Shown: positions 15,951 through 39,009, counted from the first letter of the stretch. The stretch is DNA of 64,000 nt from an uncultured beta proteobacterium (GCA_963705615.1 CAVPKE010000004.1:414535-478534); one strand, 5' to 3'. A program made the numbers and translations. The notes: a model not told the origin generated them from the sequence alone.

Positions 15951-16883
15951 TTACGGAACAAGCTGCCACTTGTCGGTAGGGTCATATGCGGTGATCGGGC
16001 CAAACACCTTCAATGTGTCGGGACCGAAGTCGCGCTCATACACATCGCCGTAGTGGTTCACGATGAACGTCTTGATTCCGGTTTCGCCGTAGCGTGCCGG
16101 GGCCGCGGCCATGGCGAAGCCTGCCACCATTCGCCCGTTGATGACGTAGCTATAAGCGCCGCCCGGCGCCGCAGCACCTTGGCGCGTCAAAATCTTGAAG
16201 TAGTAGCCGTTGTAGGGCTCGCCTGGTCTGCGCTTGTCCGGGTCGCGGATGAGCGGGCCGAACGGACTCATCTCATCTCCTTTTTCAGTATCGGCTGGCC
16301 AATACAGACCATCGCGCTTACCGGGCGAGCTCGCAACCTTGCGTGCGAACGCACGCACGCGAGTACCGTCCCTCGGCTTTGACGCATATTGACGCTGTGC
16401 GCTCACGTATGCGCGCAAGACCTCGATTGCGTCGAGTTCATTCCTGCCGATGCGGCGATTCAGCATTTCTTCGCTCCCCGCAGCGGCATCGAATTGCCAC
16501 CCCGCGCCGCGTCGCACGATCGGGATCGGCAAGGGCCAGGCTCCAAACCCAACTATGACGATGACCTTGTCGTTGCCGTCCCGCCGCAACACCAGGTATT
16601 CGGCAGCAGCGCGAGCAAACCTCTCGCGGTCTTCCTGATCGGCAACATGGTCGACGGTTGCAACGAGGCTGCGGTACTTTGCACCAAAGACATCGATCAG
16701 CGCACTTTCGTCGTCTGCCTTGGTGGCGTCGATCAACGCTTGCGCGGCGGCCTCCGGAGTTTCGAACGTACGTTGCGCGCACGCCACTTGGGCCCATGGC
16801 ATCGCAACGATGAAGGCCAACGCAGCTGAAGCTCGCACCGACCAACGCAAATATCGGGTCGCAATCATCGTCATTTTCCTCAT
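15951..16883 (-). CDS. DUF2950-family secreted protein
   Basis: 310-aa intact ORF with a signal peptide. Typical DUF2950 N-terminal pattern FETPEAAAQALIDA...DD..AL..VFG. ATGA overlap with the upstream DUF3300 gene. Confidence 0.8.
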   Translation of the reverse strand: MRKMTMIATRYLRWSVRASAALAFIVAMPWAQVACAQRTFETPEAAAQALIDATKADDESALIDVFGAKYRSLVATVDHVADQEDRERFARAAAEYLVLRRDGNDKVIVIVGFGAWPLPIPIVRRGAGWQFDAAAGSEEMLNRRIGRNELDAIEVLRAYVSAQRQYASKPRDGTRVRAFARKVASSPGKRDGLYWPADTEKGDEMSPFGPLIRDPDKRRPGEPYNGYYFKILTRQGAAAPGGAYSYVINGRMVAGFAMAAAPARYGETGIKTFIVNHYGDVYERDFGPDTLKVFGPITAYDPTDKWQLVP

Positions 16884-18151
16884 CGCCCGCGACCGCCGCC
16901 CCCACGCGCCCCGCCGCCAGCGCGTCCTCCGCCGCTAGCGCGCGCCCCACCGGACCGTCCACCTCCTCCCGAGGAGCTCGCGCGGCTGGACGCTCCGCGA
17001 TCGCTCGCGCGAGTTGCAGAGGAGCCGGAGCCGACTCCACCGAATGCATCCCCGCGCCCGCCGACGTCGCCTGCGGAGGGACGTCCTCCCGCGCCGGCTC
17101 CGCCGAGATTCTGTGCAGAAGGTTGACGCCCTCCCAGATCGCGGCCGCCGACATCGCCTGTGGTCGGGCGCCCGCCACCGACGTTGCCAGTGGAAGGACG
17201 TGGTGCACCGCCTTGCCTCCCGAACTGCGTGTCGCCCGGCCGTGCCGCTGGACGCGGTTGCGTCCTGCCGCTGCTCAGCTGTCCGGGTTGTTTGTCCGAG
17301 CGCCAGCTCTGACCCTCACGCGCGCCGGTAGCCTGTGGACGCTTGGCCCCCTCCTGTCGGGCTCGGTTTGCCGCATCCTGGTTTCGCGGATTGTCGCGAT
17401 TGATATTGATGTTGTCGGTCCGATTGATGTTGACGTTGTGCTCGATGTGCGCACTGTTCCAGTTGAACGCCCATGCCGTCATCGCCCCGAAGAACAGTCC
17501 TGTGGCGAACGCCGCCCCCGGTGGATAGGGATAGTAGTAGCAGGGGTAAGGCGTCGGGTAATAGATCGGTGGCGCGGACTGAACGACCACCGTGGTCGGT
17601 TCGTATTGCGGCACATAGATCACCTGCGGATCAGCCGGCACGACTTTGATCACTTCCTGCTCCGTGACGACGATCTGCTTGTCATCGGACTTGAGGCTGC
17701 CGGCTGCCGATGCTTTGCGCCGAAACGCCTGTATCGCATCCATCACAGCGGCTTGTTGACTCACGACCGCCTCGCCCAGCGCTTGCACCCAGTCGAGGTC
17801 GTCGTTCATTTTCTTGACCACATCCGGATAGTTCAAGAGATTGCGCACGGGTTCCGGAAGACTGGGGTCGGGCTTCAGGTTCGAGTCGGCCTTGTACTTC
17901 TCCAGAAAGCGCTGAGCTTTCACCACGTCGAGCGGGTAAGTGGAGGCGGGAAGGATGATCGCGAGCAAATCATCGGGATAGAGTGCGATCGGGCCGACGA
18001 GCTGCTCGAGCTCGTCGGCGGAGTACTGATCGCTCGCTGGCGCAGCCGCAGCAGCGGGAGAGGCTGGCTCCTGCGTCAATGCAATGCCGGGCGACAGCAG
18101 TCCAGTAGCAAGCGCAACAACCGCGCAGGTCGCCGCTCGCAACGCACTCAT
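16880..18151 (-). CDS. DUF3300-domain secreted protein with Gly/Arg/Ser-rich C-terminal tail
   Basis: Signal peptide. DUF3300 pattern LEQLVGPIALYPDDLLAIILPASTYPLDVV.A.RF. The last ~150 aa are low-complexity G/R/S. Confidence 0.8.
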   Translation of the reverse strand: MSALRAATCAVVALATGLLSPGIALTQEPASPAAAAAPASDQYSADELEQLVGPIALYPDDLLAIILPASTYPLDVVKAQRFLEKYKADSNLKPDPSLPEPVRNLLNYPDVVKKMNDDLDWVQALGEAVVSQQAAVMDAIQAFRRKASAAGSLKSDDKQIVVTEQEVIKVVPADPQVIYVPQYEPTTVVVQSAPPIYYPTPYPCYYYPYPPGAAFATGLFFGAMTAWAFNWNSAHIEHNVNINRTDNININRDNPRNQDAANRARQEGAKRPQATGAREGQSWRSDKQPGQLSSGRTQPRPAARPGDTQFGRQGGAPRPSTGNVGGGRPTTGDVGGRDLGGRQPSAQNLGGAGAGGRPSAGDVGGRGDAFGGVGSGSSATRASDRGASSRASSSGGGGRSGGARASGGGRAGGGARGGGGRGR

Positions 18152-18534: not shown

Positions 18535-19318
18535 TCAGGACTGGAAGCCGATCTCGACTGCGCCGATGCCCTCGACCGTGAATCGGTAGTGCTCCCCGGC
18601 CGCGGGGAAACGCGTCGTCACCAGGCTGCCGGTCGACACGATTTCTCCGGCATGCAGGGTCTGGCCCTGTTCCCGCAGATGGTTGGCAAGCCAACGCAGG
18701 GGCTCGAAGGGATGGCCGAGCACGTCGCGCCCGTGCCCCTCATCGATCTTTTCGCCGTTGCGCTCGACCGTTCCGCGCGCAGCAGCGAGATCGGGCCAGG
18801 AAGTCCGGTATTCTCCGGTCACGATGCCTTCGTTCCAGGCGTTGTCGGCGACCAGAGAGAGCAGATCGAGCGGATAAGCCGAGTTGCGGTCATCGATCAC
18901 TTCGAACGCCGGGCAGACCGCGTCCACTGCTTCGGCCACCTCGCGCATCTCGTAGGGCTTCTCGCGCGGCGCGAGCGAGCGGCCCACCCGCACGCAGATC
19001 TCGAACTCGATGCCGAGATGCACCAGATCGCCCAGCCGAAGGTCGACGCCGCTTGGAAGCAGACCGCTTCTGCAGCACTACGCCCGCGACCGGGTGGTCG
19101 ATGCTGCACATCTTCTGCATGCGCGCCGAAGTCAGGCCGATCTTGTAGCCGACGCGCGGCCCGTGCGTCGCGAGCATGCGCTCGACAAAGGCCGCCTGGA
19201 TCGCATAAGCGCCCGCCAGGTCCGTGGCTCCCCAAGCACGCGCGAAAGGCACGATATCGCGCTTCTGCGCATGATCGCGCATCAGTGTGGACGCCGCTTT
19301 TCCCAGATCGATTTGCAC
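18535..19318 (-). CDS. 2-keto-4-pentenoate hydratase / FAH-family hydratase-decarboxylase, frame break near 19040
   Basis: N-terminal AYAIQAAFVERML...GPRVGYKIGLTS and a C-terminal domain ending GEIVSTGSLV. The 784-nt span implies one indel. Confidence 0.75.
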
Positions 19319-19548
19319 GGAGATGCCCGAACGATGCCGGCAATGCGCTGCGCGACATGATACCGGCTTTGTCAGCTGGGGAAGGTATGTCGATGAAAGA
19401 CAAGCAGTAATCTCGTTGCGAAGCGGCATCAGCCACAGCCGTCTCATCATTTTCTTGCGCTAGATCAAAAGAAAACGGCCCCAAGGATCGGATAATGCGG
19501 TGCAGCAACCGTGTATAATGCGCCGCCGGATTCTTGAGGGACCGAGTT

Positions 19549-21869
19549 ATGACTGATCTGACCAAACAGCTGTCCAGAAGCCACGACATCTCTGCGAAAG
19601 TCGCGCAGGTTTTTCAGACGCGGGCGGGGCTCGCGCAGGAGCAATTCAGCGAGCGCGTCGAGAAGGCCTACAGCGCCTGCATGACTGAGTCGGCGACAAG
19701 CGCCGCATCGCCGTGGGATGTTTGGACCGATGGCGCGCGCTACGCAGTGGACCTTGCTCAGCGCTCGGTGCTGTTCTGGGACGCGCTGCGACAGCGCGGC
19801 AATAGCTTCGTCGAGCGGACACGCAAGGGGTTGCCGCCAGTGTTGCATTTTGACTACGAGACCGTGGTCGATGGGCGTTCGCTGGAGCGGCCGGTCAACT
19901 ACGCGCTGGTGCGGATCGTCCCGCCCGAGGGCGTGAAGGTGGATGCAACGCGGCGCCCTTACGTCATCATCGACCCGCGCGCCGGCCATGGCCCCGGCAT
20001 CGGCGGCTTCAAGGACGACTCGCAGGTGGGTGTGGCGTTGCGCGACGGGCACCCGGTGTATTTCGTGATCTTCTTTCCCGAGCCCGAACCCGGTCAAACG
20101 ATGCTGGATGTCTGCAGCGCGGAGCAGCAGTTCGTGCATCGTGTGCGCGAGCTGCACCCGGATGCGCCTAAGCCAGCCGTCGTCGGCAACTGTCAGGGCG
20201 GCTGGGCCGCGATGATGGTTGCCGCCGCCAATCCCGACGACACCGGGCCGATCGTCATCAACGGTGCGCCGATGTCCTACTGGGGTGGCGCCTGGAGCGA
20301 AGGCGAGGGCGACAACCCGATGCGCTACTCGGGCGGCCTGCTTGGGGGCACCTGGCTGGCGTCGCTGACTTCGGACCTGGGCGCGGGCAAGTTCGACGGC
20401 GCCTGGCTGGTGCAGAACTTCGAGAACCTGAATCCGGCGAACACTTTCTGGGACAAGTACTACCACGTGTTCGCCAACGTGGACACGGAACCACCCCGCT
20501 TCCTGGACTTCGAGCGCTGGTGGGGTGGGTTCTATCTGATGAACCGGGAAGAGATCGAATGGATCACGCAGAACCTCTTCGTCGGAAACAAGTTGTGGTC
20601 CGGCACGGTCAAGGCTGGCGACGGCGGTGTCTTCGATCTGCGCGAGATCAAGGTTCCCATTGTTCTGTTTGCGTCGATGGGCGACAACATCACGCCGCCC
20701 CAGCAAGCGTTCAACTGGGTGGCCGACGTGTACGGCAGCACCGATGAGATCAAGGCGCGCGGGCAGGTGATCGTCGGCTTGCTGCATCAGGATATCGGCC
20801 ACCTCGGGATCTTCGTGTCCGGCAAGGTGGCCAAGAAGGAGCACGCGCAGATCGTCTCGGTCATGGAATCGATCGAGGCGCTCCCGCCCGGGCTGTACGG
20901 CATGCAGATCGCCGAGCACAAGGGCGCCGACGGCAAACCCGTGTACGAAGTCAGCTTCGTCGAGCACCGGCTGGAGGATATCGCGGCCCGTCTGAATCGC
21001 TTCAAGCGCGCCGACGAGAAGCCCTTCGAAGCTGTGAGCGCCGTCTCCGAGTTCAACCAGCGCGCGTACGAGCTGTTCGCACAGCCTTTGATACAGGCCA
21101 TGTCCAACGACTACGGCGCAAAGCTCGCGCGTGAGTTTCACCCGCTGCGCTTCCAGCGCTGGGCCATATCCGATCTGAACCCCTGGCTCGGGTGGCTCGG
21201 ACCGGTTGCACAGGCGGTGAAGGCACAACGGCAGGCCGTGGGCCCCGACGATCTGCGGCGCAAGGCCGAGAGGATGGGGTCGGAGCTGATCAGCGCATCG
21301 CTGGACTACTACCGCGCTATGCGCGATGCGGTTAGCGAAGCCGCGTTCTTCGAACTGTACGGCAACCTGTTCTCGCTGTATCTGGCAGACAAGCGCGAAG
21401 CGACCGAGGAACACGCGGGTGACCGACCCGCGCGAGCTGCCCTTCGTCAAGGAGGCGCTGGCCTCGATCGACGAAGGCGGGTATGCGGAAGCGGCGGCGC
21501 GAGTAGCGTTCCTTCTGGCGCGCAAAGGCGAGCCGTTGCCGCTGTCCCGACTCCAGCTCAAGCAGGAGCTGATTGCCGATTATCGTGAGCTGCTGCCGGC
21601 CATCTCCTTGGATCAGGCACGCCGGATCCGAGGCGAGCAGGAGATCATCGTGCGCTACGAACCCGAGAAGGCGATCGAGACGCTGCCGGTGCTGTTGGGC
21701 GAACGCGCCGATCGCGACCGCCTGCTCACGTTGCTGGATCGGCTTCTTGCCGATGAACGCGTGCAGCGCGTCAAGCCGTCGGCCGAGCAGCTGGCGATGC
21801 TCGAGCGCATCCGCACCGTGCTCGGCTCCGCGGCGGCGCGGCGTCCACGAGTCGTCGTCGGCGAAGTGA
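19549..21869 (+). CDS. DUF3141-domain protein (PhaC-like alpha/beta-hydrolase family), frame breaks near 21418 and 21850
   Basis: ~770-aa reconstruction. TATAAT at 19514-19519 lies 30 nt upstream of the ATG. The stop is taken as TGA 21867-21869, which overlaps the pta ATG. Confidence 0.8.
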
Positions 21870-22830
21870 TGCAGCGCAGGCCGGAAGTGGAGCGCAAGCA
21901 CGAGAAGTACGAGCGCCTGCTGGCGCTTGCCAAAACGCTGCCGCCGCTGCCCACCGCGGTCGTCCATCCCTGCGACGAGTCTTCTCTGACGCGAGCGCCG
22001 TGGAGGCCGCGGAGATGGGGCTGATCGCGCCAATCCTGATCGGCCCTGCGGCGCGGATCAAGGCGGTGGCCCATAAGTACGGCCTCGATATTTCTCGATT
22101 CGAGATCGTGGACACGCCGCACAGCCATGCTTCCGCCGCCGAAGGCGTGCGGCTGGTCCGCGAGGGACGGGCCGAGTGCCTCATGAAAGGCAGCCTGCAC
22201 ACCGACGAGCTGATGGGCGCGGTGGTGGCGCGCGAAGGCGGGCTGCGCACGGCGCGGCGCATCAGCCACTGCTTCGTGATGGACGTGCCGACCTACTCGG
22301 AAGCGCTCATCGTCTCGGATGCAGCCGTGAACATCGCGCCCACGCTGGAGGAAAAGGTCGATATCGTGCAGAACGCGATCGATCTCGCGCACGCCCTCGG
22401 CGCTCGGGAAGTGCGGGTGGCGATCCTCTCGGCGATGGAGACGGTCAATCCCAAAGTTCCCTCGACGATCGAGGCGGCCGCACTGTGCAAGATGGCCGAC
22501 CGGGGACAGATTACCGGCGGCATACTGGACGGTCCGCTGGCGCTCGACAACGCGATCAATCTGCAGGCGGCGGAGATCAAGCACATCAAGTCGCCGGTGG
22601 CGGGCCGCGCCAACGTGCTGATCGTGCCGGACCTGGAAGCCGGGAACATGCTGGCCAAGAGCCTGTCTTTCCTGGCCGACGCCGATGCCGCCGGGATCGT
22701 GCTCGGTGCGCGTGTGCCGATCATCCTCACCAGCCGGGCCGACTCGGTCACCACGCGGCTCGCCTCCTGTGCGGTAGCCGCGCTCGTCGCCAAGGCTCGG
22801 CGCGAGACGCCCGCTCGGACCGTCGCCTGA
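21869..22830 (+). CDS. pta: Phosphate acetyl/butyryl-transferase (short Pta/Ptb type), frame break near 22000
   Basis: AVVHPCDE.SL.GA.EAA..GLI.PILIG, KGSLHTDELM, VSDAAVNI.P and VPDLEAGNMLAK are typical of the PTA_PTB family. Confidence 0.85.
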
Positions 22831-22875
22831 GCTTTCGCTTCGGCCTCGGTTAAGCAATCACGAGTCACTGCCCTC

Positions 22876-24067
22876 ATGGCTGACGCCATCGTCGTCCTGA
22901 ACGCAGGCTCTTCGAGCATCAAGTTCTCGCTCTTCCTGGTGCGAAAGGAGGAGCTCGAGCTGGAGCAGCGCGGCCAGATCGAAGGCATCTACACCGCGCC
23001 GCACTTCGTCGCGCAGGATCGGAGCGGCAAGCTGGCCGCCGAGAAATCCTGGGGCGAGGGCGCCGAGCTCGGTCACGCCGGCGCGCTCGAGTATCTGGTG
23101 GCGTATCTGCGCGAGGGGCTAGGCGGCGATCGCCTGAGTCGGCGTCGGCCATCGCGTCGTCCATGGTGGGCTCGAATACACGCAAGCCCGTGCGCCTGGA
23201 CTGCCGAGCGTGCTTGCAGGCGCTGGAGAAGTTCGTTCCGCTCGCCCCGCTGCATCAGCCGCACAACCTGGCGCCGATCCGGCTGCTGCTTGGAGCGCGC
23301 TACCGGATCTGCCGCAGGTCGCCTGCTTCGACACGTCGTTCCACCGCAGCAATCCGGAAATCGCGCAGATGTTCGCGCTGCCCGCCGAGCTGCACGCGCA
23401 GGGCGTGCGCCGCTACGGCTTCCATGGGCTGTCCTACGAGTACATCGCGTCTGTTCTGCCGAAGTTCGACCCGAAGGCTGCGGGCGGACGAACCGTCGTG
23501 CTGCACCTGGGCAACGGGTCGAGCATGTGCGCGATCCAGGCGGGCAAGAGCATGGCGAGCACGATGGGCTTTACCGCGGTGGAAGGCCTGCCCATGGGCA
23601 CGCGCAGCGGCTCGCTCGATCCGGGCGTGATCCTCTATCTCATGGATCAGCGCGGGATGGATGCGCGCGCGATCGAGAAGCTCATCTACAACCAGTCCGG
23701 CTTGCTCGGCGTATCGGGGATCTCGAGCGACATGCGCACGCTGCTGGCGAGCGATGATCCGCGCGCGAAGCTCGCGGTAGACCTGTACCTCTACCGTATC
23801 CGGCGCGAGCTGGGCTCGCTCGCCGCGGCACTGGGCGGGCTGGATGCGATCGTGTTCACCGCCGGCATCGGCGAGAACGCCGCGCTCATCCGCGAGCGCG
23901 TGTGTCGCGACGCAGCCTGGCTCGGAGTCGAGCTCGACGCAGCCGCGAACGCCAAGGGCGGCCCGCGCATCAGCGCCCCGGCCAGTCGCGTGTCCGCCTG
24001 GGTCATCCCCACCAACGAGGAGCTGATGATCGCGCGCCACACGCGGGCCCTGCTTCACGCCGTGTGA
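22876..24067 (+). CDS. ackA: Acetate kinase, three frame breaks (about 23135, 23185, 23295)
   Basis: VLNAGSSSIKF, GHRVVHGG, PLAPLHQPHNL, CFDTSFH, RYGFHGLSYEY, GNGSSMCA and VFTAGIGEN motifs are all present across frames. Confidence 0.9.
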
Positions 24068-24091
24068 TCGAGAGCACATCGGAACAGCAGC

Positions 24092-24610
24092 GTGGACCCG
24101 GCCCGATATTCGGCGACAGAGACGTTGCGCGACGGCCGCTCGATCGAGATCCGCGCATTGAAGCCCGCCGATCGCGACGAGCTGCTCAGCGCGGTCGGCC
24201 GCATGAGCGACCAGTCGATCTATCGTCGTTTCTTCTGACCCAAGCAAACCTTCACCGACGAGGAGGTCGCGTATTACACGAACGTCGACTTCGTCAATCA
24301 CGTCGCGCTGGTGGCAGTGCTCGAGGAGGATGGGCGCTCGGTCATCGTCGGCGGCACACGCTACATCGTTTCCGAACCCGGAGCGGCCGAGGTCGCCTTC
24401 GCTGTAGACGATGCTCACCAGGGGCAAGGCATTGGCGCGCTGCTGATGAAGCACCTTGCTGGGATCGCTCGTCGATCCGGGCTCAAGGAGCTGTTCGCTG
24501 AAGTGCTCCCGAACAACATGGCGATGCTGAAGGTGTTCGAGAAGAGCGGGCTCGGCGTGAGCACGAAGCGCGAGCAGGGCGTGGTTCACGTCACGATCAA
24601 AATTTCCTGA
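24092..24610 (+). CDS. Stand-alone Pat-type (protein lysine acetyltransferase-like) GNAT domain with in-frame TGA at 24236-24238
   Basis: IEIRALKPADRDELL...SIYRRFF[TGA]PK...FT.VDF..HVALVAV ... VDDAHQGQGIGALLMKHL. This matches the GNAT half of Pat/Acs-regulating acetyltransferases. Confidence 0.7.
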
Positions 24611-24645
24611 TTCTTCGCCTTCTTAACTCTTCAAGCCATTGACCT

Positions 24646-25431
24646 ATGACACTCGAAATTCCGCGCCCGGTCCTCAAGGGCAAGAAAGCGCTGGTGGTGG
24701 GCATCGCCAACGAGCATTCCATCGCGTACGGCTGTGCGTGCGGCCTTTCGCGAACTCGGAGCCGAGCTGGCGATCACCTACCTCAACGAGAAAGCGAAAG
24801 CCTACGTCGAGCCGCTGGCGCGCAAGCTGGAGGCGCCGATCTTCATGCCGCTCGACGTCTCGAAGCCGGGCGAGCTGGAGGCGGTGTTCGAGCGTGTCGC
24901 CAAGCACTGGGGGCAGCCTCGACATCCTGGTGCACTCGATCGCCTGGGCGCCGAAGGACGACCTGCAGGGCGGACTGCTCAACTGCAGCGCGGAAGGATT
25001 CGGCCGCGCGATGGACATCTCCTGCCACTCTTTCATCCGCATGGCGAAGCTGGCCGCGCCGTTGATGAGCGACGGAGGCAGCTTGTTCGCCATGAGCTAC
25101 TACGGCGCGCAGAAGGTCGTGCCCAACTACAACGTGATGGGCCCGATCAAAGCGGCGCTCGAGGCCGCTTGCCGCTATCTCGCGTACGAGCTGGGGCCGA
25201 AGGGCATCCGCGTTCACCCGATCTCGCCGGGCCCGCTCAAGACCCGTGCGGCATCGGGGCTCAAGGACTTCGACCTGCTGCTCAACGAGGCGGTGGGGAA
25301 AGCGCCGGTGGGCGAGCTGGTCGACATCATGGACGTGGGCTTCGCCTGCGCCTATCTGGCTACGCCCGTACGCCCGACGCATCACCGGCGGCACCGTGTA
25401 CGTCGACGGCGGCGTCAACATCATGGCTTGA
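24646..25431 (+). CDS. fabI: Enoyl-[acyl-carrier-protein] reductase (NADH), FabI type, three frame breaks (about 24735, 24915, 25370)
   Basis: GKKALVVGIANEHSIAYG, ILVHSIA.AP, MSYYGA.KV.PNYNVMG.KAALE and ITGG.VYVDGG motifs. Confidence 0.9.
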
Positions 25432-26879: not shown

Positions 26880-28303
26880 ATGAGGAAGCTGATCCTTGCT
26901 GTCGCGTTCGCGGTGGCCTGTCCGGTGACGTGCCAAGCCGACGAGCTGAGCGACCTGAAAGCCCAGCTCGATGCGGCGATGAAGTCGATCCAGGCAGTTG
27001 AAGCAACGCGTCGAAGCGCTCGAGGCGGAGAAGGCAAAAGCGCGGCCGGGTGCGGCACCAGCGCCGGCGGAGGCCAAGGCGGCCCCAGCGCCCGCAGCCG
27101 CGGAGGCAAAAGAGGCGGCCGCTCCGGCTCCTGCTGCTGCACCGACGATGGCCGCGGGAGCGCCGGTCGTCGCGCCCGACGCCACGCCGGAGAAGGGGGC
27201 ACCGGACTCGAACAAGGCGCGCTTGGAGATCAGCGGCAAGGTGCAGCTGGACCTCATCTACGACTTCAAGCGCATGAATCCGCACTGGAACGCCACGGAG
27301 CGGCCGTCGCAGATCCCGGTCACCTGTCCGGGCGATGCCGGTTGCGGCACAGGACGGCGAGACCATCTTCAGCGTCCGGCAGAGCGCGATCGCGTTCAAG
27401 GGCTACGTCCCGACCTCGGCTCGGCGAGCTCAAGACCGATCTGAGCTTCGACCTGTTCGGCACCGGCGGGGGCAACACGACAGATCCGCCTGCTCAACGC
27501 CTGGGCCGAGCTCGGGAAGTTCGGAGTGGGGCAGTACTACACCCTGTTCATGAACATCGACACCTTCCCGAACATCATCGACTACTGGGGACCCAGCGGC
27601 ATGACGTTCCTGCGCAATCCGCAGGTGCGCTATACGCCCATCGATCGCACCGGCATGAAGCTGGCGTTTTCGCTCGAGGCTCCCAACGCCGCCATCGATA
27701 CCGGGAAGGTATCCGACGTCGACCCGACGCTGGGCGTCGAGGGCTGGACCCCTTGGCCGGACTTCGTGGGCAATTTGACTCTCAACGGCGATTGGGGCGA
27801 ATTCCAGACCGGCGGGATCTTGCGCTCGGTCGGTTACCAGACAACCACCACCGCCAGCGGCAACCCGTCCGGCACGGTGACCGGATGGGGCATCAACGTC
27901 AACGGCTGGCTGAACACGTTCGGCAAGGACCGGATCACGGGGCAGCTCGTCTACGGCCACGCCATCGCGAGCTACATGAACGACGGCGGCGTCGATATCG
28001 CGCCGAATGCGAACCTGCAGGCGCAGGCGGTGCCGTCGATCGGCGGCTTCGTGTACTACGACCACTACTGGAGCGACAAGTGGAGCAGCTCGCTCGGCTT
28101 GAGCGCGCATCGTCAGGACAACACCGCCGGACAGCACGGCAACGCGTTCAAGCAAGGGCAGCTACGCCTCGACCAACCTGCTGTGGTATCCGGCGAAGAA
28201 CGTGCTGACGGGCGCCGAGCTGCTGTGGGGCAAGCTCGAGCAGTTCAACGGCGAGTCGGCCGACGACGTGCGCGTCCAGTTCTCCGGGCAGTTCAAGTTC
28301 TAG
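26880..28303 (+). CDS. DcaP-like outer-membrane porin (N-terminal coiled coil + Ala/Pro-rich linker + beta-barrel), about five frame breaks
   Basis: Signal peptide, then ELSDLKAQLDA...KQRVEALEAEKAK, AP-rich linker, barrel strands, and a C-terminal VRVQFSGQFKF stop at 28301-28303. Confidence 0.7.
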
Positions 28304-28322
28304 CCGCGCGGCGGAGGAATTC

Positions 28323-30586
28323 ATGCAATTCCTACAAGCGTTTCCCATCGCCATCATCGACGAGGACTACGAAGGCAAGCACGCCGCCGGGCGCGGCATG
28401 CGGCAGCTCGCAGCTGCGATCGAGAAGGAAGGATTTCGTGTGGTGGCCGGTCTCAGCTACGAAGACGCGCGGCGGCTGGTCAACGTCTTCAACAGCGAAT
28501 CGTGCTGGCTGGTCTCGGTGGACGGCGCGGAGGCCACCCCGAAGCAATGGCAGATCCTGGAGGAGGTGCTGGCCGCCAAGCGCAGCCGCAACGACCGGCT
28601 GCCGATCTTCCTGTTCGGCGACGAGCGCACGGCGGAAATGGTTCCGGCAAGCGTGCTCAAGCACGCGAACGCCTTCATGCGCCTGTTCGAGGACTCGGCC
28701 GAGTTCCTGGCCCGCGCGATCGCCCGCTCGGCGCAGCTCTACCTCGAGCGCCTGCCGCCGCCGATGTTCAAGGCGCTCATGGACTACACGCTGCACGCCA
28801 GCTACTCCTGGCACACGCCCGGTCACGGCGGCGGAACGGCGTTCCGCAAGAGCCCGGTGGGCCAGCTGTTCTACGAGTTCTTCGGCGAGAACACGTTGCG
28901 CTCCGACATTTCGGTGTCGGTGGGCCAGCTCGGCTCGCTGCTCGACCACACGGGGCCGATCGCCGAAGGCGAGCGCAACGCGGCGCGGATCTTCGGCGCG
29001 GACGAGACCCTGTTCGTGGTCGGCGGCACTTCGACCTCGAACAAGATCGTCTGGCACGGCACCGTTTCCCGCGGCGACCTCGTGCTGTGCGACCGCAACT
29101 GCCACAAATCGATCCTGCACTCGCTGGTCATGACCGGGGCCACGCCGATCTACCTCGTCCCCTCGCGCAACGGTCTGGGCATCATCGGACCGATCTCGCG
29201 GGAGCAGTTCACGCCCGAGTCGATTCGGCGAAAGATCGCCGCCAGCCCGTTCGCGAAGGAGACGAGCGGCAAGGTGCGTCTGATGGTGATGACCAACTCC
29301 ACCTACGACGGCCTGTGCTACAACGTCGACGCCATCAAGCAGACGCTCGGCGACGCGGTGGACGTGCTGCACTTCGACGAGGCCTGGTACGCCTACGCCA
29401 ATTTCCACGAGTTCTACGACGGCTATCACGCCATCTCGTCCGAGCGCCCGGCGCGCTCGCCGCACGCCATCACCTTCGCCACGCAGTCCACGCACAAGCT
29501 CCTGGCCGCGCTGTCGCAGGCGTCCATGATCCACGTTCAGCACGGCGAGACGCAGCGGCTGGACATGGCGCGCTTCAACGAGGCGTTCATGATGCACACC
29601 TCGACCTCGCCGCAGTACGGCATCATCGCGTCCTGCGACGTCGCCGCCGCCATGATGGAGCAGCCGGCCGGCCGGGCGCTGGTGCAGGAGACGATCGACG
29701 AGGCGCTGAGCTTCCGCCGCGCCATGACCGCGGTGAAAAAGCAGCTGAACGGCTCGTGGTGGTTCGACGTCTGGCAGCCCGACGCGATGGCCAAGCGGCC
29801 GACCGATGAGCAGTCCGCCTGGGTGCTGAAACCCGGCGACCGGTGGCACGGGTTCGAAGAGCCTGGCCGAGAACCACGTGCTGGTCGACCCGATCAAGGT
29901 CACCATCCTCACGCCCGGGTCTGTCTGCCGACGGCAACATGCAGGAGCACGGCATCCCCGCCGCCGTGGTCACGCGGTTCCTGTCCGCCCGCCGCATCGA
30001 GATCGAGAAGACCGGCCTGTACTCCTTCCTGGTGCTGTTCTCGATGGGCATCACCAAGGGCAAGTGGAGCACGCTCGTCACCGAGCTCATCAACTTCAAG
30101 GATCTGTACGACGCCAACGCGCCGCTCAAGCGCGTGCTGCCGGCATTGGCGGAGGCGCATCCGGACGCCTACGCGAAGATGGGACTCAAGGATCTCTGCG
30201 AGCAGATGCACCGGACCTACCGCGAGGACAATCTGCCCAAAGCGCAGAAGGACATGTACACCACGCTGCCCGAGATGGCGATGCGGCCGGCCGATGCTTA
30301 CGAATGCCTCGTGCGCGGGCGCGTGGAGAGCGTGGAGATCGACAACCTGATGGGCCGCACGCTGGGGGTGATGGTGGTGCCCTACCCGCCCGGCATTCCC
30401 GTGATCATGCCGGGCGAGCGCATCACGCCGGCGACCAAGTCGATTCAAGACTACCTGCTGTACGCGCGCGAGTTCGACCGGAAGTTCCCCGGCTTCGAGA
30501 CCGACATCCACGGGCTGCGCTTCGAGCCGACCGCCGGCGGCAGGCGCTATCTGGTGGACTGCATCACACAAGGAGCCGATCGATGA
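28323..30586 (+). CDS. ldcA: Orn/Lys/Arg decarboxylase, LdcA-type (wing domain + PLP fold I), frame breaks near 29865 and 29918
   Basis: Near-colinear with the remembered P. aeruginosa LdcA: YSWHTPGHGGG.A.RKSPVGQ.F..FFGENTLRSD.SVSV..LGSLLDHTGP, DRNCHKSILHS, STHK, LYSFLVLFSMGITKGKWSTLVTEL. Substrate not assignable from sequence alone. Confidence 0.9.
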
Positions 30587-32908
30587 TCCCACGCTCGGTC
30601 AAGTCGCCCACCATCCCGATCCCGTTCCACAAGCTGCTCAAGGTGGTCGCGATCGTCGATAGCGCCAACCCGCAGACCAAGCAGCTTCTCGACCACATCG
30701 CCGCGGAGAACTTCAAGGTCGAGGTGACCGACCGCTTCGAGCGCGACGTCTCCGAGGACGCCGCGGTCGGCGCGTACATCGCGTTGATCGACGGTGAGCG
30801 CCTCGAGCAAGCGCGCAAGATGGCGCTAGCGGTTCGCGCCATCGGCTTTCGCACGCCGCTCTGGGCGCTCGCGGACTCGCACCGCATCTCCGACATCGCC
30901 GTCGTCGGCGGGCTCGGCGAAGTGGACGGCTACATCTACCTCGGCCAGCAGACGCCCGCCTTCTATGCGAAGCAGGTCGTGGCGAGCCTCGTCAAGTATG
31001 GGAGAGAGCTGCTGCCGCCGTTCTTCGGCGGGCTCATGGCCTACGACGGCGAGGCCAACGTGGCGTTCGATTGCCCGGGCCACCAGGGCGGTCAGTTCTA
31101 CCGCAAGTCGCCGGCGGGTCAGCTCTTCTTCAAGCATTTCGGCGAGAGCGTGTTTCGCAACGACCTGTGCAACGCCGACGTGGACTTGGGCGATCTGCTC
31201 ATCCACGAAGGCCCCGCCGCGGAAGCGCAGCGCTACGCCGCAAAGGTGTTCGGCGCCGACAAGACCTATTTCGTCCTGAACGGCACGAGCACCTCCAACA
31301 AGGTGGTCACGAACGCGGTGCTGCGGCGCGGGGACCTGGTCCTCTTCGACCGCAACAACCACAAGTCCCTCCACCAGGGTGCCCTGGTAGGAGGCCGGCG
31401 CGATCCCGATCTTCCTGCCGACCTCACGCAATCCCTTCGGCATGATCGGTGCCGTCGACTGGGACGCCTGGGACGAAAAATATCTCCGGGAGCAGATACG
31501 GGCCAACCCGCTGGTGAAGGACCCGCAGCGGCACAAAGCCGAGCGCCCGTTCCGCCTCGCGTGCATCCAGCTCGCGACCTACGACGGCACGATCTACAAC
31601 GTCCGCAAGGTCCTGGAGAAGATCGGGCACCTGTGCGACTACGTGCTCTGGGACGAGGCGTGGATCGGCTACAACGCCTTCCATCCGCTGTTCGAGGACC
31701 ACAGCCCGATGCGGCTGGAGAAGCTGGCACCGGAGATGCCCGGGCTGTTCTCGACGCAATCCGTCCACAAGCAGGGCGCCGGTTTCTCGCAGGCTTCCCA
31801 GATCCACAAGCGCGACGAGCATATCCGCGGCCAGCGGCGCTTCATCGAGCACAAGCGCTTCAACGAGTCGTTCCTGATGCACGCGTCCACGTCGCCCTTT
31901 TATCCGCTGTTCGCCTCTCTGGACGTGAACGCCAAGGTTCACGAGGGCAAGGCCGGTGAGATGCTGTGGGACCGGTGCATCGAGCTGGGCATCGAGGCCC
32001 GCAAGAAGATCCGCGAGTTCTGCCGCTACTTCGCGCGCACCGGGCAGAGCGACCAGGAGAAATGGTTCTTCGATCCGTTCGTGCCCGATGTGGTGACGAT
32101 CCGGGGCTCGAAGTTCACCGCGGATGCGACTGACCTTCCCTGGGAGGACCTCCCCACGGAGGTGATCAAGCGCGAGCAGCAGTGCTGGAACTTCCATCCC
32201 AACAGCCGCTGGCACGGGTACTCTGGCTACGCCGACGGCTACGCGATGGTGGACCCCAACAAGCTCACGCTGCTCACACCAGGAATCGAGCGCAAGACCG
32301 GCGAGTACCTCGACTTCGGGGTGCCCGCCACGGTGGTCGCCAATTACCTGCGCGAGCAGCGCGTAGTCCCGGAGAAGTGCGATCTCAACAGCATCCTGTT
32401 CCTGATGACGCCGGCGGAGGACGAGAGCAAGCTCAACACGCTGATCGCGAAGCTCGTCAAGTTCAAGAATCTCTGGGATCGCGACGCACCGCTGCCCGAG
32501 GTCCTGCCAACCCTGTATGCGGCGCACAGCGAGCGCTACGCGGGCTACACGCTGCGCCAGGTCTGCAACGAGATGCACGACTTCTATCGCAAGGCGAACG
32601 TCAAGGATCTGCAGCGGCGCTGCTTCCGGGCGGCGAGCTTCCCGGAGCTCGCGATGTCACCTAAGGACGCCTACGAGGCCCTGGTCGCGAACGATGTCGA
32701 CTACGTGCCTCTGGAGAGCATCAAGGGTCGCATCTCCGCCACTCTCGCATTGATCTACCCGCCCGGCATCGGTGTCGTGGTCCCCGGCGAGCGCTGGGAC
32801 GAGCGCGCGCAGCCGATGCTCGACTACTTCCTGGCCTTTCAGGAGTCGTTCAACCGCTTCCCGGGCTTCAACTACGAGGTCCAGGGCGTGTTCCAGGAAC
32901 GCGAGTAG
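30583..32908 (+). CDS. speF: Ornithine decarboxylase, SpeF/SpeC type, frame break near 31392
   Basis: AFDCPGHQGG.F, ADKTYFVLNGTS.SNKVV, LFDRNNHKS, RPFRLA.IQL.TYDGTIYN, KIGHLCDY, TQSVHKQ.AGFSQ.SQIHK, FGVPATVVANYLRE..VVPEKCDLNSILFL.TPAED. ATGA overlap with ldcA. Confidence 0.9.
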
Positions 32909-32980
32909 CGGCCGCATCAAGTTCCACACGTACGTGGTCCGCGAGTGAGCGTCGCGAAGGGGAATGAAGGAGGAGGCACT

Positions 32981-34317
32981 ATGCAAGAAGCGAAGAAGAT
33001 GAATCTCACCCAGCTGACGTTCCTCGTCGCCGTGAACATGATGGGCTCCGGCATCATCATGCTGCCGACGAACATGGCGCAGGTCGGCGCGATCTCGCTC
33101 CTGTCCTGGATCGTGACGGCGCTGGGCTCGATGGCCATTGCCTACGGGTTCGCGCAGGCCGGCATCTTCAATCAACGCGAGGGAGGCCTGGCCGCCTATG
33201 CCGAGGACGCCTACGGCAAAGCGGGCTACTTTCAGGTGTTCTTTCTGTATTTCCTGTCGCTGGCGATCGCCAACGTCGCGGTTGCGATTTCGGCCGTAGG
33301 ATATCTGACCGCGTTCATCCCCTGGCTCTCGTCGACGCCGATCGCCACCTGCGTCGGGGTGATCGCGCTGCTCTGGCTGACCACGGTCGCGAACTTCGGA
33401 GGTCCCAGCCTGACGGGGCGCATCGGCGCGGTGACGGTATGGGGTGTCATCTTGCCGGTGGGGTTGATCTCGATCATCGGCTGGTTCTGGTTCAAGGGCG
33501 GCACGTTCGCGGCGGCCTGGAACCCTCAAGGACTCAGCCTGGCGGAAGGCATGGGCTCGAGCATATCGCTCACCCTGTGGGCTTTCCTGGGCATGGAGTC
33601 GGCAGCGCAGAACTCGGCCGCGGTAGAGAATCCAAAGCGCAATGTCCCGCTCGCTTGCATGTTAGGCACTCTGGGCGCCGCTGCGATCTACATCCTGTCG
33701 ACGACGGTGATTCAGGGCATCGTGCCGAACGCCGAGCTGGCGAAATCGACGGGCCCGTTCGGCCTGGCCTACGCCCAGATGTTCAACCCGACGGTTGGCT
33801 CCATCGTCATGGCCCTTGCGGTCATGGCCTGCCTCGGCTCGCTGCTCGGCTGGCAGTTCACGCTCGCCCAGACTGCGAAGGCGGCGGCGGACGAGCGCAT
33901 GTTTCCTGCCTTCTTCGCGAAAGTGACCTCGATGGGCGCACCGATCATCGGCATGGTCATCATGGGCGTCGTCCAGTCCCTGATGGCGTTGTCGACGATT
34001 TCGCCCGATCTCAGCAAGCAGTTCAGCGCCCTGGTGAACCTCGCCGTGGTCACCAACGTCCTTCCCTACATCATCGCTCTCTCCGCGTTGACGGTGATCA
34101 TGCAGGCGGCGGGCGTCACCGGATCGACGTACCGGCGCAACTACGGTGGTCGCGCTGGTCGCGATGCTCTACAGCGTCTACGCCCTGTATGCCTCCGGCA
34201 AGGACGCAGTGCTCGGCGGCATGCTGGTGATGGGCGATCGGTTTCGTGATCTGGGGTTTCATTGCACCCCGCTTCGCATCGGGGCAGCCGGCTGCCGCGC
34301 TGGCCAAAGGGGCCTGA
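32981..34317 (+). CDS. potE: Putrescine:ornithine antiporter PotE (APA family), frame breaks near 34140 and 34235
   Basis: Colinear with E. coli PotE: VNMMGSGIIMLPT, ANVA.AISAVGY, TVANFGG, ITVWGVI.P, WAFLG.ES, VENP.RNVP, GSLLGWQFT.AQ, LVNLAVVTN..PYI. Confidence 0.9.
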
Positions 34318-34352
34318 CCGTGAGCGGACGGACGGTTGAGAGGAGACAGAAC

Positions 34353-35298
34353 ATGCAAAGCGCACGATCGGGAAGCCCTCGGGGCCGTCGAGCTCGGATC
34401 GCGATCTTCGCGATCGCAATCGTCGCGGCGCTGCTCCCGCCGCTCGCGCAGGCGGCCGGGACCCGCCGGCACCTTGGAGCGGGTGCGGCAAACAGGCAAG
34501 CTCACGCTCGGCTATCGAGCCGACGCGCGGCCATTTTCCTATCGGGACGAGTCGGGCAACCCGGCCGGCTATTCGGTCGCGCTGTGCTCGCGTATCGCCG
34601 AGCAGGTGAAAGCCGAGCTTGGGCTCTCCACGCTGGCCGTGGAGTGGATGCCAGTCACGCTCGAGGATCGCTTCCGCGCCGTGCAGGAGGGCAAGATCGA
34701 CCTGCTGTGCGGCGCGGCTACCGCGTCGCTGTCGAGAATGAAAGAAGTCTCCTTCTCGATCGCGATCTTCCCGGGCGGGATCGGGGCGCTTCTGCGTGCG
34801 GACTCTTCTCCCGCGCTGCGCGACGTCCTGTCCCGGAAGCCGCCGTCGGGACCGTTCTGGCGTGCGCACCCGGCGCGGATCCTGGAGGGCAAGACCTTCT
34901 CGGTCGTCGGCGGCACGACAAGCGAGCGCTGGTTGGCCGGTCGGCTCGACACGTTCCAGCTCACCGCGAAGGTCGTTCCTGTCGACGGCTACGAGGCTGG
35001 CATCCGGCGGGTGCTCGACCGCAGCTCCGACGTCTTCTTCGGAGAGCGCGCCATCCTTCTGGACATCGCCAAGCGCGGCCCGTCAACGCGCGATTTGACC
35101 GTCCTCGATCGCCAGTTCACGTACGAGCCCATAGCCCTCGCATTCGCTCGCGGCGACGAGGACTTTCGTCTGGTCGTGGATCGAACCTTGAGCCGGCTGT
35201 TCGGCTCCAAGGAGTTCGGCGACTTGTACGCGAAGTGGTTCGGGAAGCCCGACGAGGACGCGCGCAACTTCTTCCGCTGGACGGCGCTGCCGGACTGA
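34353..35298 (+). CDS. Periplasmic amino-acid-binding protein (family 3 SBP), orphan, frame break near 34460
   Basis: Signal peptide ...[21 protein letters not shown], then [36 protein letters not shown]. No permease or ATPase genes nearby. Confidence 0.8.
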
Positions 35299-35320
35299 GA
35301 CTCGAGTGAGGAGCAAAACG

Positions 35321-36548: not shown

Positions 36549-36626
36549 GGACCGAGCGCGTTCTGAAAGCGTGTGCGAGTCGCAATAGACTGCCGAGCTT
36601 AGTCACCATTATGTAAGGAGAGCATC

Positions 36627-37631: not shown

Positions 37632-37666
37632 CGCCATGCGCGTAGCTCCGTGCGCGAACGGCTGAG

Positions 37667-38996: not shown

Positions 38997-39009
38997 GAGA
39001 GATCGCACC

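What the first reader, a model, noticed from the sequence alone, without database searches (positions are those of the whole stretch)
19549..25431. DUF3141 (PhaC-like) - pta - ackA - GNAT - fabI cluster: candidate acyl-thioester to ATP module
Five co-directional genes form this cluster:
- a ~770-aa DUF3141 protein from a PhaC-like alpha/beta-hydrolase family
- a short-type phosphate acetyl/butyryl-transferase, whose ATG overlaps the upstream stop (GTGATG at 21866-21871)
- an acetate/short-chain-acid kinase
- a Pat-type GNAT
- a FabI-type enoyl reductase

Established knowledge: Pta and AckA interconvert acyl-CoA, acyl-phosphate and ATP, and FabI reduces enoyl thioesters with NADH.

Inference: together these genes could convert polymer-bound or CoA-bound 3-hydroxyacyl or enoyl units into a saturated acid plus ATP. 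That would be a fermentative use of a PHA-like reserve. The GNAT could serve as a regulator responsive to acetyl-CoA.

I know of no experimentally defined role for DUF3141. A near-consensus -10 box (TATAAT, 19514-19519) sits 30 nt upstream of its ATG.
Basis: inference. Interest (0 to 1): 0.55.

Follow-up and report, generated by a model that had tools for sequence, protein, structure and literature searches.

The report
Low-oxygen PhaC-like, Pta, AckA, FabI operon
This is one more copy of a widespread operon, first described in 1999, that joins an uncharacterised relative of the bioplastic (PHB) synthase to ATP-yielding acyl-phosphate enzymes; this copy sits behind a low-oxygen (FNR-type) promoter, and its genes look broken only because the assembly carries many one-base insertion errors.

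Summary
All five genes are present, co-directional and at the stated coordinates. None is an intact ORF as assembled. There are ten frameshifting insertions (DUF3141 2, pta 1, ackA 4, fabI 3) and one in-frame TGA in the GNAT.

I read these breaks as assembly errors (about 0.9):
- A 93.5%-identical relative has every gene open.
- dN/dS is 0.035-0.21.
- About 1,700 such frame switches, 78% of them +1, are scattered over the whole genome, including ccoN.

DUF3141 passes the triad test. Cys215, Asp379 and His418 are near-invariant. The model has pLDDT 91.5, and PHA synthases are its closest solved folds (Z 23-25).

The order DUF3141-pta-ack-fabI holds in 57 of 67 related loci and on a Sinorhizobium meliloti megaplasmid. 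It is the published orfA-pta-ackA-fabI operon type.

Points tested here:
- An FNR-type box with class II spacing to a -10 lies upstream in 33 of 73 loci. The same motif precedes ccoN and hemN in this genome.
- Canonical PhaC replaces DUF3141 in otherwise identical clusters.
- Every DUF3141 genome checked also has canonical PhaC (8 of 8, against a base rate of about 22%).

The GNAT is specific to this genus. The chemistry is untested. This scan has already reported the same operon type in at least 16 other genomes.

The parts
19455..19468 (.). FNR/CRP-family binding box TTGCGCTAGATCAA
   Evidence: The motif class occurs in 33 of 73 upstream regions of related DUF3141 genes, against 0.005 expected per 250 nt. 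The same motif lies upstream of ccoN and hemN in this genome. 65 of 105 genomic sites are intergenic, against 16% non-coding DNA.
19491..19496 (+). -10-like hexamer GATAAT, 29.5 nt from the centre of the box (class II, -41.5 geometry)
   Evidence: A (g/c)ATAAT hexamer recurs at offset 36-41 from the start of the box in the aligned upstream regions. The function is inferred.
19496..19504 (.). TGCGGTGCA, a TGC-N3-GCA palindrome (PhaR/PhbF-type operator candidate)
   Evidence: TGC-N3-GCA occurs in 25 of 73 upstream regions, against 0.085 expected per 200 nt. The motif definition comes from PMC3206438. A PhaR gene is present in the genome. This is suggestive only.
19514..19519 (+).
   Evidence: It is present. 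No -35 partner was found. It is not at the conserved spacing, and ATAATGCG occurs twice, 23 nt apart, where the relative L023 has one copy.
19549..21869 (+). DUF3141 gene (PhaC-like Cys-Asp-His alpha/beta hydrolase, about 772 aa once corrected); two +1 frame breaks at about 21408 and 21860
   Evidence: PF11339 scores 853 bits. Frame map; indels. Model and fold.
21869..22830 (+). Phosphotransacylase gene (PRK11890 subfamily, related to Ptb). Start is ATG 21869 overlapping the TGA, or GTG 21887. A 2-base insertion lies at about 21988.
   Evidence: NF008852 scores 483.8 bits on the window fragment, with a cut-off of 413. map the frame and the insertion.
22876..24067 (+). Acetate/propionate-family kinase gene; four +1 frame breaks between 23138 and 23302
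   Evidence: PF00871 and TIGR00016/NF005462. Frame breaks.
24092..24610 (+). Stand-alone GNAT (similar to the Pat GNAT domain) with an in-frame TGA at 24236-24238
   Evidence: The relative has TCA at that codon. The GNAT lies between ack and fabI in only 4 of 80 loci, all of the same genus.
24646..25431 (+). FabI-type NADH enoyl reductase paralog; three +1 frame breaks (24739, about 24912, 25368)
   Evidence: NF005717: 455 bits for the ortholog and 275 bits for the window fragment. map the breaks. A second FabI-like gene lies on C12.

Best explanation
The region is a five-gene operon of an uncultured soil Burkholderiales bacterium. Its genes are a DUF3141 protein, a Ptb-related phosphotransacylase, an acetate/propionate-family kinase, a Pat-like GNAT and a second FabI-type enoyl reductase.

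Shown here:
- The gene identities.
- The conserved order.
- The PhaC-like fold and Cys-Asp-His triad of DUF3141.
- The frame breaks are specific to this assembly and belong to a genome-wide pattern of insertion errors.

Inferred with good support: the operon is transcribed from an FNR-type class II promoter, so it is switched on when oxygen is scarce.

Inferred mechanism: Pta and AckA turn acyl-CoA into acyl-phosphate and then into acid plus ATP, which is substrate-level phosphorylation. DUF3141 works at the PHA granule, most likely releasing (R)-3-hydroxyacyl-CoA from stored PHA by CoA-dependent cleavage through its cysteine. An (R)-hydratase, fused to Pta in other genomes, and the FabI paralog then convert it to a saturated acyl-CoA while re-oxidising NADH. 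In this reading stored PHA yields both ATP and an electron sink without respiration.

The GNAT is a later, genus-specific addition. It possibly acetylates acetyl-CoA synthetase to prevent a futile cycle (speculative).

My odds:
- Genes and operon real: 0.95.
- Breaks artefactual: 0.9.
- FNR control: 0.7.
- Pta-Ack working towards ATP: 0.6.
- DUF3141 mobilising PHA: 0.35.
For: Gene identities.

Artefactual breaks:
- All coding indels against G002 (93.5% nt identity, all ORFs open) are insertions in the window.
- dN/dS is 0.035, 0.105, 0.207 and 0.050 for pta, ack, GNAT and fabI, and 0.12-0.30 against G024.
- About 1,701 frame-switch candidates occur genome-wide. The window's rate equals the genome average, and the +1 to -1 ratio is 1333:368.
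- ccoN is split into four pieces while rpoB and rpoC are intact, so the errors are patchy.
- Other low-contig, low-completeness MAGs of the genus also show split genes.

Conservation:
- pta follows DUF3141 in 71 of 73 loci, ack in 65 of 69, fabI in 57 of 67, and the full order holds in 57 of 67.
- The same order is seen on a S. meliloti megaplasmid and a Rhodobacter plasmid.

PhaC likeness:
- C215, D379 and H418 are at least 90% conserved.
- The Asp and His motifs align with those of PhaC.
- The model places Cys215 at the strand-turn-helix elbow, Asp after the next-to-last core strand and His after the last.
- The top PDB matches are all PhaC (Z 23.2-25.0).

PHA link:
- Canonical PhaC occupies the same slot before MaoC-Pta, Ack and FabI in Paraburkholderia and Sphingobium.
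- 8 of 8 DUF3141 genomes tested carry PhaC_N, against 22 of 100 in a class-wide draw. One of the eight, G077, is unpublished; without it the count is 7 of 7.
- BdhA and CoA-transferase genes lie inside some clusters.

Low-oxygen control:
-.
- In Herbaspirillum the PhaC2 gene, which sits in an operon with pta-ackA (PMC8222739), drops 100-fold in an fnr triple mutant (PMC5862806).
- This genome has no other pta or ack and has two canonical PhaC genes.
Against: - No enzyme of this operon type has been assayed with C4 substrates.
- The transferase scores as PRK11890 'phosphate acetyltransferase' and falls below the cut-off of the butyryltransferase models. The kinase is far from butyrate kinases.
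- In S. meliloti the operon is reported to be induced by phosphate starvation through PhoB (Summers 1999, as cited in PMC8231600). That fits carbon overflow as well as it fits mobilisation.
- Low oxygen and low phosphate are classic conditions for making PHA, not degrading it.
- This cluster has no hydratase gene of its own.
- More distant DUF3141 genes (39-49% identity) mostly lack pta-ack neighbours, so DUF3141 does not depend on them.
- The closest solved folds are synthases, but no Cys-type intracellular depolymerase has a solved structure for comparison.
- Relatives are not independent, so the enrichment figures overstate.
- The raw reads were not seen, so real frameshifts cannot be formally excluded.
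Confidence: 0.5

Rival explanations
1. DUF3141 is a conditional PHA synthase, and AckA-Pta run in the opposite direction. They would activate acetate or other short acids to CoA esters that are stored as PHA when oxygen or phosphate is limiting. This would be a storage module like that of polyphosphate-accumulating organisms.
For: - The closest folds are synthases.
- Low oxygen and low phosphate are PHA-accumulating conditions.
- A PPK2 gene lies next to the cluster in 16 related loci.
- From established knowledge: clostridial Ptb and Buk can load hydroxy acids onto CoA in vitro.
Against: - FabI has no role in this direction, because NADH-dependent enoyl reduction is effectively irreversible.
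- No thiolase or acetoacetyl-CoA reductase is found in the clusters.
- Every carrier tested already has canonical PhaC.
Confidence: 0.15
2. The operon is an acetyl-phosphate or acetate-overflow and lipid module unrelated to PHA. Pta-AckA would handle only acetyl units, for ATP, acetyl-phosphate signalling or phosphate economy. FabI would be a genuine second enoyl-ACP reductase. DUF3141 would be an acyltransferase or hydrolase for some other ester or thioester.
For: - The NCBIfam names are phosphate acetyltransferase, acetate/propionate kinase and enoyl-ACP reductase FabI.
- S. meliloti enzyme activities were measured as acetate kinase and phosphotransacetylase under PhoB control (from my memory of the abstract; the operon and its regulation are cited).
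- Distant DUF3141 genes sit in unrelated contexts such as metal islands.
Against: - Canonical PhaC takes the DUF3141 slot in some genomes.
- An (R)-specific hydratase is fused to Pta.
- BdhA and CoA transferase lie inside some clusters.
- DUF3141 strictly co-occurs with canonical PhaC in the genomes tested.
- A TGC-N3-GCA PhaR-type motif is enriched upstream.
Confidence: 0.2
3. The frameshifts and the stop codon are real, and this organism carries a decaying, non-functional copy of the operon.
For: - Ten frame breaks and one nonsense codon lie in 5.9 kb.
- The local density is about twice the detected genome average.
- rpoB and rpoC are intact.
Against: - dN/dS is 0.035-0.21 against a 93.5%-identical relative with intact genes.
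- Every coding indel is an insertion, whereas bacterial gene decay is biased towards deletion (established knowledge).
- The same +1-biased breaks occur about 1,700 times across the genome, including in ccoN.
- Codon-position GC bias is fully preserved in every frame segment.
Confidence: 0.08

Closest known systems
Sinorhizobium meliloti orfA-pta-ackA-fabI operon (Summers, Denton and McDermott 1999, J Bacteriol 181:2217; known here through PMC8231600, since the paper itself was not held)
   Same: It has the same four core genes in the same order. A S. meliloti megaplasmid record carries DUF3141 (48% identity), pta (71%), ack (52%) and fabI (62%) consecutively.
   Different: The published regulation is phosphate starvation through PhoB. 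This window has no convincing Pho box and has an FNR-type box instead. The window adds a GNAT between ack and fabI. Its ORFs are broken in the assembly.
PhaC (group D / PhaC2-type)-(PhaJ-)pta-ackA-fabI clusters of Burkholderia sensu lato and Herbaspirillum seropedicae (PMC8231600, PMC8222739, PMC5862806)
   Same: The downstream genes and the layout are the same. In Herbaspirillum the PhaC2 gene, which sits in an operon with pta-ackA, depends on Fnr, in line with the FNR-type box found here.
   Different: The first gene there is a canonical PhaC with PHBC_N, PhaC_N and Abhydrolase_1 domains. Here it is DUF3141, which lacks PhaC_N and has its own long N-terminal helices and a C-terminal helical domain.
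Class I PHA synthase catalytic domain (PDB 5hz2, 5t6o, 5xav, 9knj)
   Same: The alpha/beta-hydrolase core matches (Z 23-25, rmsd 3.3-4.3 A over about 300-317 residues). DUF3141 has a GxCxGG nucleophile box and the Asp and His motifs.
   Different: Sequence identity is only 13-17%. There is no PhaC_N domain. It scores far below the curated PhaC models (TIGR01836 34.5 bits against a cut-off of 365). Activity is unknown.
Cys-type intracellular PHB depolymerase PhaZa1 of Cupriavidus necator, which cleaves PHB thiolytically to 3HB-CoA (from established knowledge; the C-D-H triad is noted in PMC11878206)
   Same: It is an alpha/beta hydrolase with a Cys-Asp-His triad that acts at PHB granules. It supplies the chemical precedent for the proposed step.
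   Different: No detectable sequence match here (no PhaZ model was hit at 1e-5). The resemblance is one of mechanism only.

Membership tests
Pfam DUF3141 (PF11339) | Match to the family HMM above the gathering score | tested here: met
   853.2 bits against a cut-off of 29.7, covering profile positions 1-555 of 582.
PHA synthase PhaC (classes I-IV) | Alpha/beta-hydrolase core closest to solved PhaC structures | tested here: met
   Foldseek's top 14 matches are all PhaC. VIA-align gives Z 23.2-25.0 for seven PhaC entries, above lipases at Z 20-22. The model has pLDDT 91.5.
PHA synthase PhaC (classes I-IV) | Lipase-box Cys plus Asp and His catalytic residues | tested here: met
   C215 (in GNCQGG), D379 (in GDNITPP) and H418 (in GHLGIF) are at least 90% conserved in 39 diverse members. 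Asp and His align with the PhaC motifs. Their positions fit the elbow, the strand before last and the last strand. Side-chain distances were not measured because no coordinates were available.
PHA synthase PhaC (classes I-IV) | PhaC_N domain, or a score above the curated PhaC models | tested here: not met
   Pfam finds only DUF3141. TIGR01836 scores 34.5 bits against a cut-off of 365.3.
PHA synthase PhaC (classes I-IV) | Polymerisation of hydroxyacyl-CoA | not testable with these tools
   This needs an enzyme assay.
Phosphate acetyltransferase, PRK11890 subfamily (NF008852) | Score above the curated cut-off | tested here: met
   The window fragment scores 483.8 bits and the ortholog 540.6, against a cut-off of 413.
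Phosphate butyryltransferase (TIGR02706) | Score above the curated cut-off | tested here: not met
   304-320 bits against a cut-off of 410.5. This is still much closer than classical Pta TIGR00651, at 83-86 bits against 311.
Acetate/propionate kinase family (TIGR00016) | Score above the curated cut-off | tested here: met
   The intact ortholog scores 366.2 bits against 293.4. The longest window fragment scores 279 bits, as expected for a fragment. Butyrate kinase TIGR02707 scores only 45 bits against 289.
Enoyl-ACP reductase FabI (NF005717) | Score above the curated cut-off | tested here: met
   The ortholog scores 455.1 bits against 337. The 151-aa window fragment scores 275 bits. ACP versus CoA preference is not testable here.
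Protein acetyltransferase Pat (NF058543) | Full-length match, including the regulatory domain, above the cut-off | tested here: not met
   101.9 bits against 460. Only the GNAT part of the model is matched (positions 133-276 of 317).
S. meliloti-type orfA-pta-ackA-fabI operon | Gene order DUF3141, pta, ackA, fabI on one strand | tested here: met
S. meliloti-type orfA-pta-ackA-fabI operon | Pho box upstream (PhoB control) | tested here: inconclusive
   The best match is 10 of 14 positions and overlaps the start codon on the opposite strand. Similar scores occur in most relatives. There is no experimental test.
FNR/CRP-dependent class II promoter | TTGAT-N4-ATCAA-like palindrome centred about 41.5 nt upstream of the start site, that is 29.5 nt before the -10 | tested here: met
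   The box is at 19455-19468 (8 of 10 matches). GATAAT lies at 19491-19496. The spacing is conserved among relatives. The same motif precedes ccoN and hemN. Dependence on FNR is not testable here.

The most novel reading that the evidence does not exclude
DUF3141 is a CoA-dependent (thiolytic) PHA depolymerase. Together with an (R)-hydratase, the FabI paralog, the Ptb-like transferase and the kinase, it would form an oxygen-regulated 'PHB fermentation'. Each stored monomer would yield an acyl-phosphate and then ATP, and crotonyl-CoA reduction would serve as an internal electron sink. That would be an energy-conserving alternative to hydrolytic PHB breakdown.
Probability: 0.3. Interest if true: 0.7.

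Novelty: new member of a known kind. Interest (0 to 1): 0.3.

Why it matters
PHB is a major bacterial carbon and energy store, yet how cells draw energy from it without oxygen is poorly understood. DUF3141 is a large family without a tested function: 758 clusters at 50% identity match at E <= 1e-30. This operon type gives a concrete hypothesis that can be tested in cultured carriers such as Cupriavidus, Ramlibacter, Azotobacter and Sinorhizobium.

This particular copy adds three things:
- One more carrier lineage.
- A genus-specific Pat-like GNAT.
- A position beside an arginine deiminase cluster, which is a second oxygen-independent ATP source.

It also shows that this assembly cannot be read gene by gene without frame correction.

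Tried and rejected
1. A single-sequence search of solved structures with DUF3141 gave only chance hits. The profile search was needed.
2. The sigma-70 consensus scan found no full promoter between 19300 and 25850, and no terminator after fabI.
3. The Pho-box search gave nothing convincing.
4. The 1999 S. meliloti paper (PMC93636) is not held. I rely on its citation in PMC8231600 and on my memory of the abstract.
5. dN/dS against G009 was invalid for pta, ack and fabI, because G009 has frame breaks of its own. I used G024 and G002 instead.
6. Neighbours of distant DUF3141 genes gave no functional lead. They include ThrRS, GH44, succinyl-CoA ligase, PLD and HD domains, and copper-related genes.
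7. hhalign against one canonical PhaC gave low probability (7%), although the Asp and His motifs aligned. I use it only as corroboration.
8. The S. meliloti FabI1/FabI2 paper concerns two chromosomal genes, not the operon's fabI.
9. I considered programmed frameshifting or an alternative genetic code for the breaks. I rejected both, because the breaks are scattered, mostly outside homopolymers, specific to this assembly and found genome-wide.
10. I did not run a complex prediction, because no binding claim is made.

Full report
**What is in the sequence**

Between 19549 and 25431 the + strand carries coding sequence homologous to five proteins, in this order (Pfam; tblastn with the intact orthologs of relative G024):
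- a DUF3141 protein;
- a PTA_PTB phosphotransacylase;
- an acetate-kinase-family enzyme;
- a GNAT;
- a FabI-type reductase.

GTGATG lies at 21866-21871. TATAAT lies at 19514-19519, 30 nt before the ATG at 19549.

None of the five is an intact ORF as assembled. A codon-position GC plot shows the coding frame jumping inside each gene. Alignment with three relatives and with the 93.5%-identical relative G002 places extra bases in the window:
- DUF3141: about 21408 and 21860;
- pta: two bases at about 21988;
- ackA: 23138, about 23183, about 23289 and about 23300;
- fabI: 24739, about 24912 and 25368.

The GNAT has an in-frame TGA at 24236-24238, where G002 has TCA. The '~770-aa' DUF3141 whose TGA overlaps the pta ATG exists only after two +1 corrections. 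Relative G009 has the same GTGATG junction with an open 772-codon frame.

**Are the breaks real?**

I think not (about 0.9), for these reasons.
- Every indel inside coding sequence, compared with G002, is an insertion in the window. G002 has pta, ack, GNAT and fabI each in one open frame.
- With the extra bases set aside, dN/dS against G002 is 0.035 (pta), 0.105 (ack), 0.207 (GNAT) and 0.050 (fabI). Against G024 it is 0.12-0.30. Ten independent inactivating events could hardly accumulate while only three amino-acid changes arose in pta.
- A six-frame codon-usage Viterbi scan of the whole 4.54-Mb, 19-contig, 84.8%-complete genome finds 1,701 frame switches without a stop codon nearby, which is 0.37 per kb. 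They are patchy, and the window has 24 in 64 kb, the genome average. This scan detected only four of the ten breaks in the cluster, so it undercounts.
- 1,333 of the switches are +1 and 368 are -1. That is an error signature, not the deletion bias of natural gene decay (established knowledge).
- ccoN is in four pieces, whereas rpoB and rpoC are whole.
- Other low-contig, low-completeness MAGs of the genus show the same problem.
- The nearest named relatives are long-read soil MAGs of uncultured Burkholderiales.

**What the proteins are**

DUF3141 scores 853 bits on PF11339. The family is large: 758 representatives at 50% identity match at E <= 1e-30. In 39 diverse members, Cys215 (GNCQGG), Asp379 (GDNITPP) and His418 (GHLGIF) are at least 90% conserved. 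A profile of these members hits a solved PHA synthase across the stretch that ends in the catalytic Asp motif. hhalign against this genome's own canonical PhaC aligns the Asp and His motifs.

An AlphaFold model (pLDDT 91.5, pTM 0.90) places Cys215 between a strand and a helix (the nucleophile elbow). Asp379 follows strand 371-376 and His418 follows strand 407-413. The closest solved folds are all PHA synthases (Z 23.2-25.0, rmsd 3.3-4.3 A over about 300-317 residues, ahead of lipases at Z 20-22). DUF3141 lacks PhaC_N and scores far below the curated PhaC models. It is therefore PhaC-like but not a PhaC family member.

The other four genes:
- The transferase belongs to NCBIfam PRK11890. It is much nearer to butyryltransferases (about 310 bits) than to classical Pta (about 85 bits).
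- The kinase is of the acetate/propionate family.
- The reductase matches a FabI equivalog model.
- The GNAT resembles only the GNAT half of mycobacterial Pat.
- This genome has no other pta or ack. It has a further FabI-like gene, two canonical PhaC genes and PhaR.

**Conservation**

Counts are for the 80 closest loci from species-representative genomes.

| Gene after DUF3141 | Loci with the gene / loci with enough flanking DNA |
|---|---|
| pta | 71 of 73 |
| ack | 65 of 69 |
| fabI | 57 of 67 |
| full order | 57 of 67 |

Further points on the neighbourhood:
- The GNAT lies between ack and fabI only in the four loci of the window's own genus. Related GNATs sit elsewhere near the cluster in other loci; 23 loci hold a homolog.
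- Eleven loci have a long Pta that is an (R)-specific MaoC hydratase fused to Pta (NF006045 at 661 bits; Pfam MaoC plus PTA_PTB).
- Some clusters carry a 3-hydroxybutyrate-dehydrogenase-like SDR and both CoA-transferase subunits between ack and fabI. Others carry pyruvate formate-lyase. Sixteen have PPK2 nearby.
- The same four-gene order is present on a S. meliloti megaplasmid and a Rhodobacter plasmid.
- This is the orfA-pta-ackA-fabI operon that Summers et al. described in 1999 as PhoB-controlled (cited in PMC8231600).
- More distant DUF3141 genes (39-49% identity) mostly lack these neighbours.

**Evidence bearing on function**

*Promoter.* A palindrome of the FNR/CRP type, TTGCGCTAGATCAA, lies at 19455-19468.
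- The motif class occurs in 33 of 73 upstream regions of related DUF3141 genes, against 0.005 expected per 250 nt in the rest of the same loci.
- Aligned on the box, the regions show an ATAAT-like hexamer 29.5 nt from the centre of the box, which is the class II (-41.5) geometry. In the window this hexamer is GATAAT at 19491-19496.
- In this genome the same motif precedes ccoN and hemN, two textbook FNR targets. 65 of 105 genomic sites are intergenic although only 16% of the genome is non-coding.

*Slot exchange.* In Paraburkholderia and Sphingobium plasmids a canonical PhaC (PHBC_N, PhaC_N, Abhydrolase_1) sits exactly where DUF3141 sits, before MaoC-Pta, Ack and FabI. Two distant branches of the PhaC superfamily thus occupy the same slot.

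*Co-occurrence.* All eight DUF3141 genomes tested, from eight families, carry canonical PhaC. In a class-wide draw the rate is 22 of 100. G077, one of the eight, is unpublished; the count without it is 7 of 7.

*PhaR-type motif.* A TGC-N3-GCA palindrome abuts the -10 (19496-19504). The motif is enriched about fourfold upstream of related genes (motif definition from PMC3206438).

*Published work.*
- In Herbaspirillum, phaC2 lies in an operon with pta-ackA (PMC8222739). [quoted passage not shown]
- The Bradyrhizobium PhaC2 is a FixK2 target (PMC10888616) and is described as inactive (PMC5996035).

*Genomic setting.* An arginine deiminase cluster, another oxygen-independent ATP source, lies next door (earlier finding e1-2305545, not re-tested).

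**Most likely mechanism**

The parts fit one linear route that uses every conserved member:
- DUF3141 releases (R)-3-hydroxyacyl-CoA from PHA through its cysteine.
- An (R)-hydratase makes the enoyl-CoA.
- The FabI paralog reduces it with NADH.
- The Ptb-like transferase makes the acyl-phosphate.
- The kinase makes ATP.

Acetyl-CoA from the oxidative branch would take the same last two steps. This would give ATP and an electron sink when respiration fails.

What is shown is the set of parts, their conservation, the triad and the promoter motif. The direction of flux, the substrates and the role of DUF3141 are inferred. The main rival reverses the flow, with acids activated and stored as PHA. 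It leaves FabI without a role.

A third reading denies the PHA link. The slot exchange with canonical PhaC, the hydratase fusion and the co-occurrence argue against it.

**Novelty**

The operon type, its PhaC likeness and the Cys-Asp-His triad are already in print. This scan has reported the same operon type in at least 16 other genomes, including an FNR/FixK-type site and a PhaR site. I re-derived the FNR point independently here. This copy is a new member of a known kind, carried by an error-prone assembly. Its chemistry remains untested and is the only part of real interest.

Noticed in passing
window 15951-18151 (minus strand); L107: A DUF3300-DUF2950 secreted pair lies upstream of DUF3141 here, in about ten of the 80 related loci and on a Rhodobacter sp. 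CZR27 plasmid. This adjacency recurs across alpha- and betaproteobacteria and has no known meaning.
   Followed up: partly
window 46835-47570; L024 5813-6745: A PPK2 (polyphosphate kinase 2) gene sits next to the cluster in 16 related loci. In this window its homolog is 27 kb away, so the flanks have been rearranged.
   Followed up: partly
whole genome G000, e.g. C8:235330-236712 (ccoN): The assembly carries about 1,700 or more frame switches, 78% of them +1, and they are patchy. ccoN is in four pieces while rpoB and rpoC are whole. Any gene-level reading of this genome needs frame correction.
   Followed up: yes
window 19492-19522: ATAATGCG occurs twice, 23 nt apart (19492-19499 and 19515-19522), where relative L023 has a single copy.
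   Followed up: no
L129 (G002:C200), between pta and ack; corresponds to window 22851-22867: The closest relative has about 111 extra bases, G/C-rich and self-complementary, in the pta-ack spacer. This looks like a REP-like insertion and is absent from the window.
   Followed up: no
window 62199-62212 and 26880-39951: A further intergenic FNR-type box (TTGACTTAGATCAA) lies at 62199. An arginine deiminase and decarboxylase cluster lies just downstream of this operon (earlier finding). The region may collect low-oxygen energy genes.
   Followed up: no
window 18535-19450 (minus strand): The divergent upstream gene, an FAA-hydrolase / 2-keto-4-pentenoate-hydratase-like protein, is also split between two frames.
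   Followed up: partly
L127 (Azospirillum brasilense p2) 4485-4961: Between DUF3141 and Pta lies a separate 158-aa ORF with no Pfam hit, at the place where other genomes have the MaoC domain fused to Pta. Its Pta is nonetheless annotated as bifunctional.
   Followed up: no
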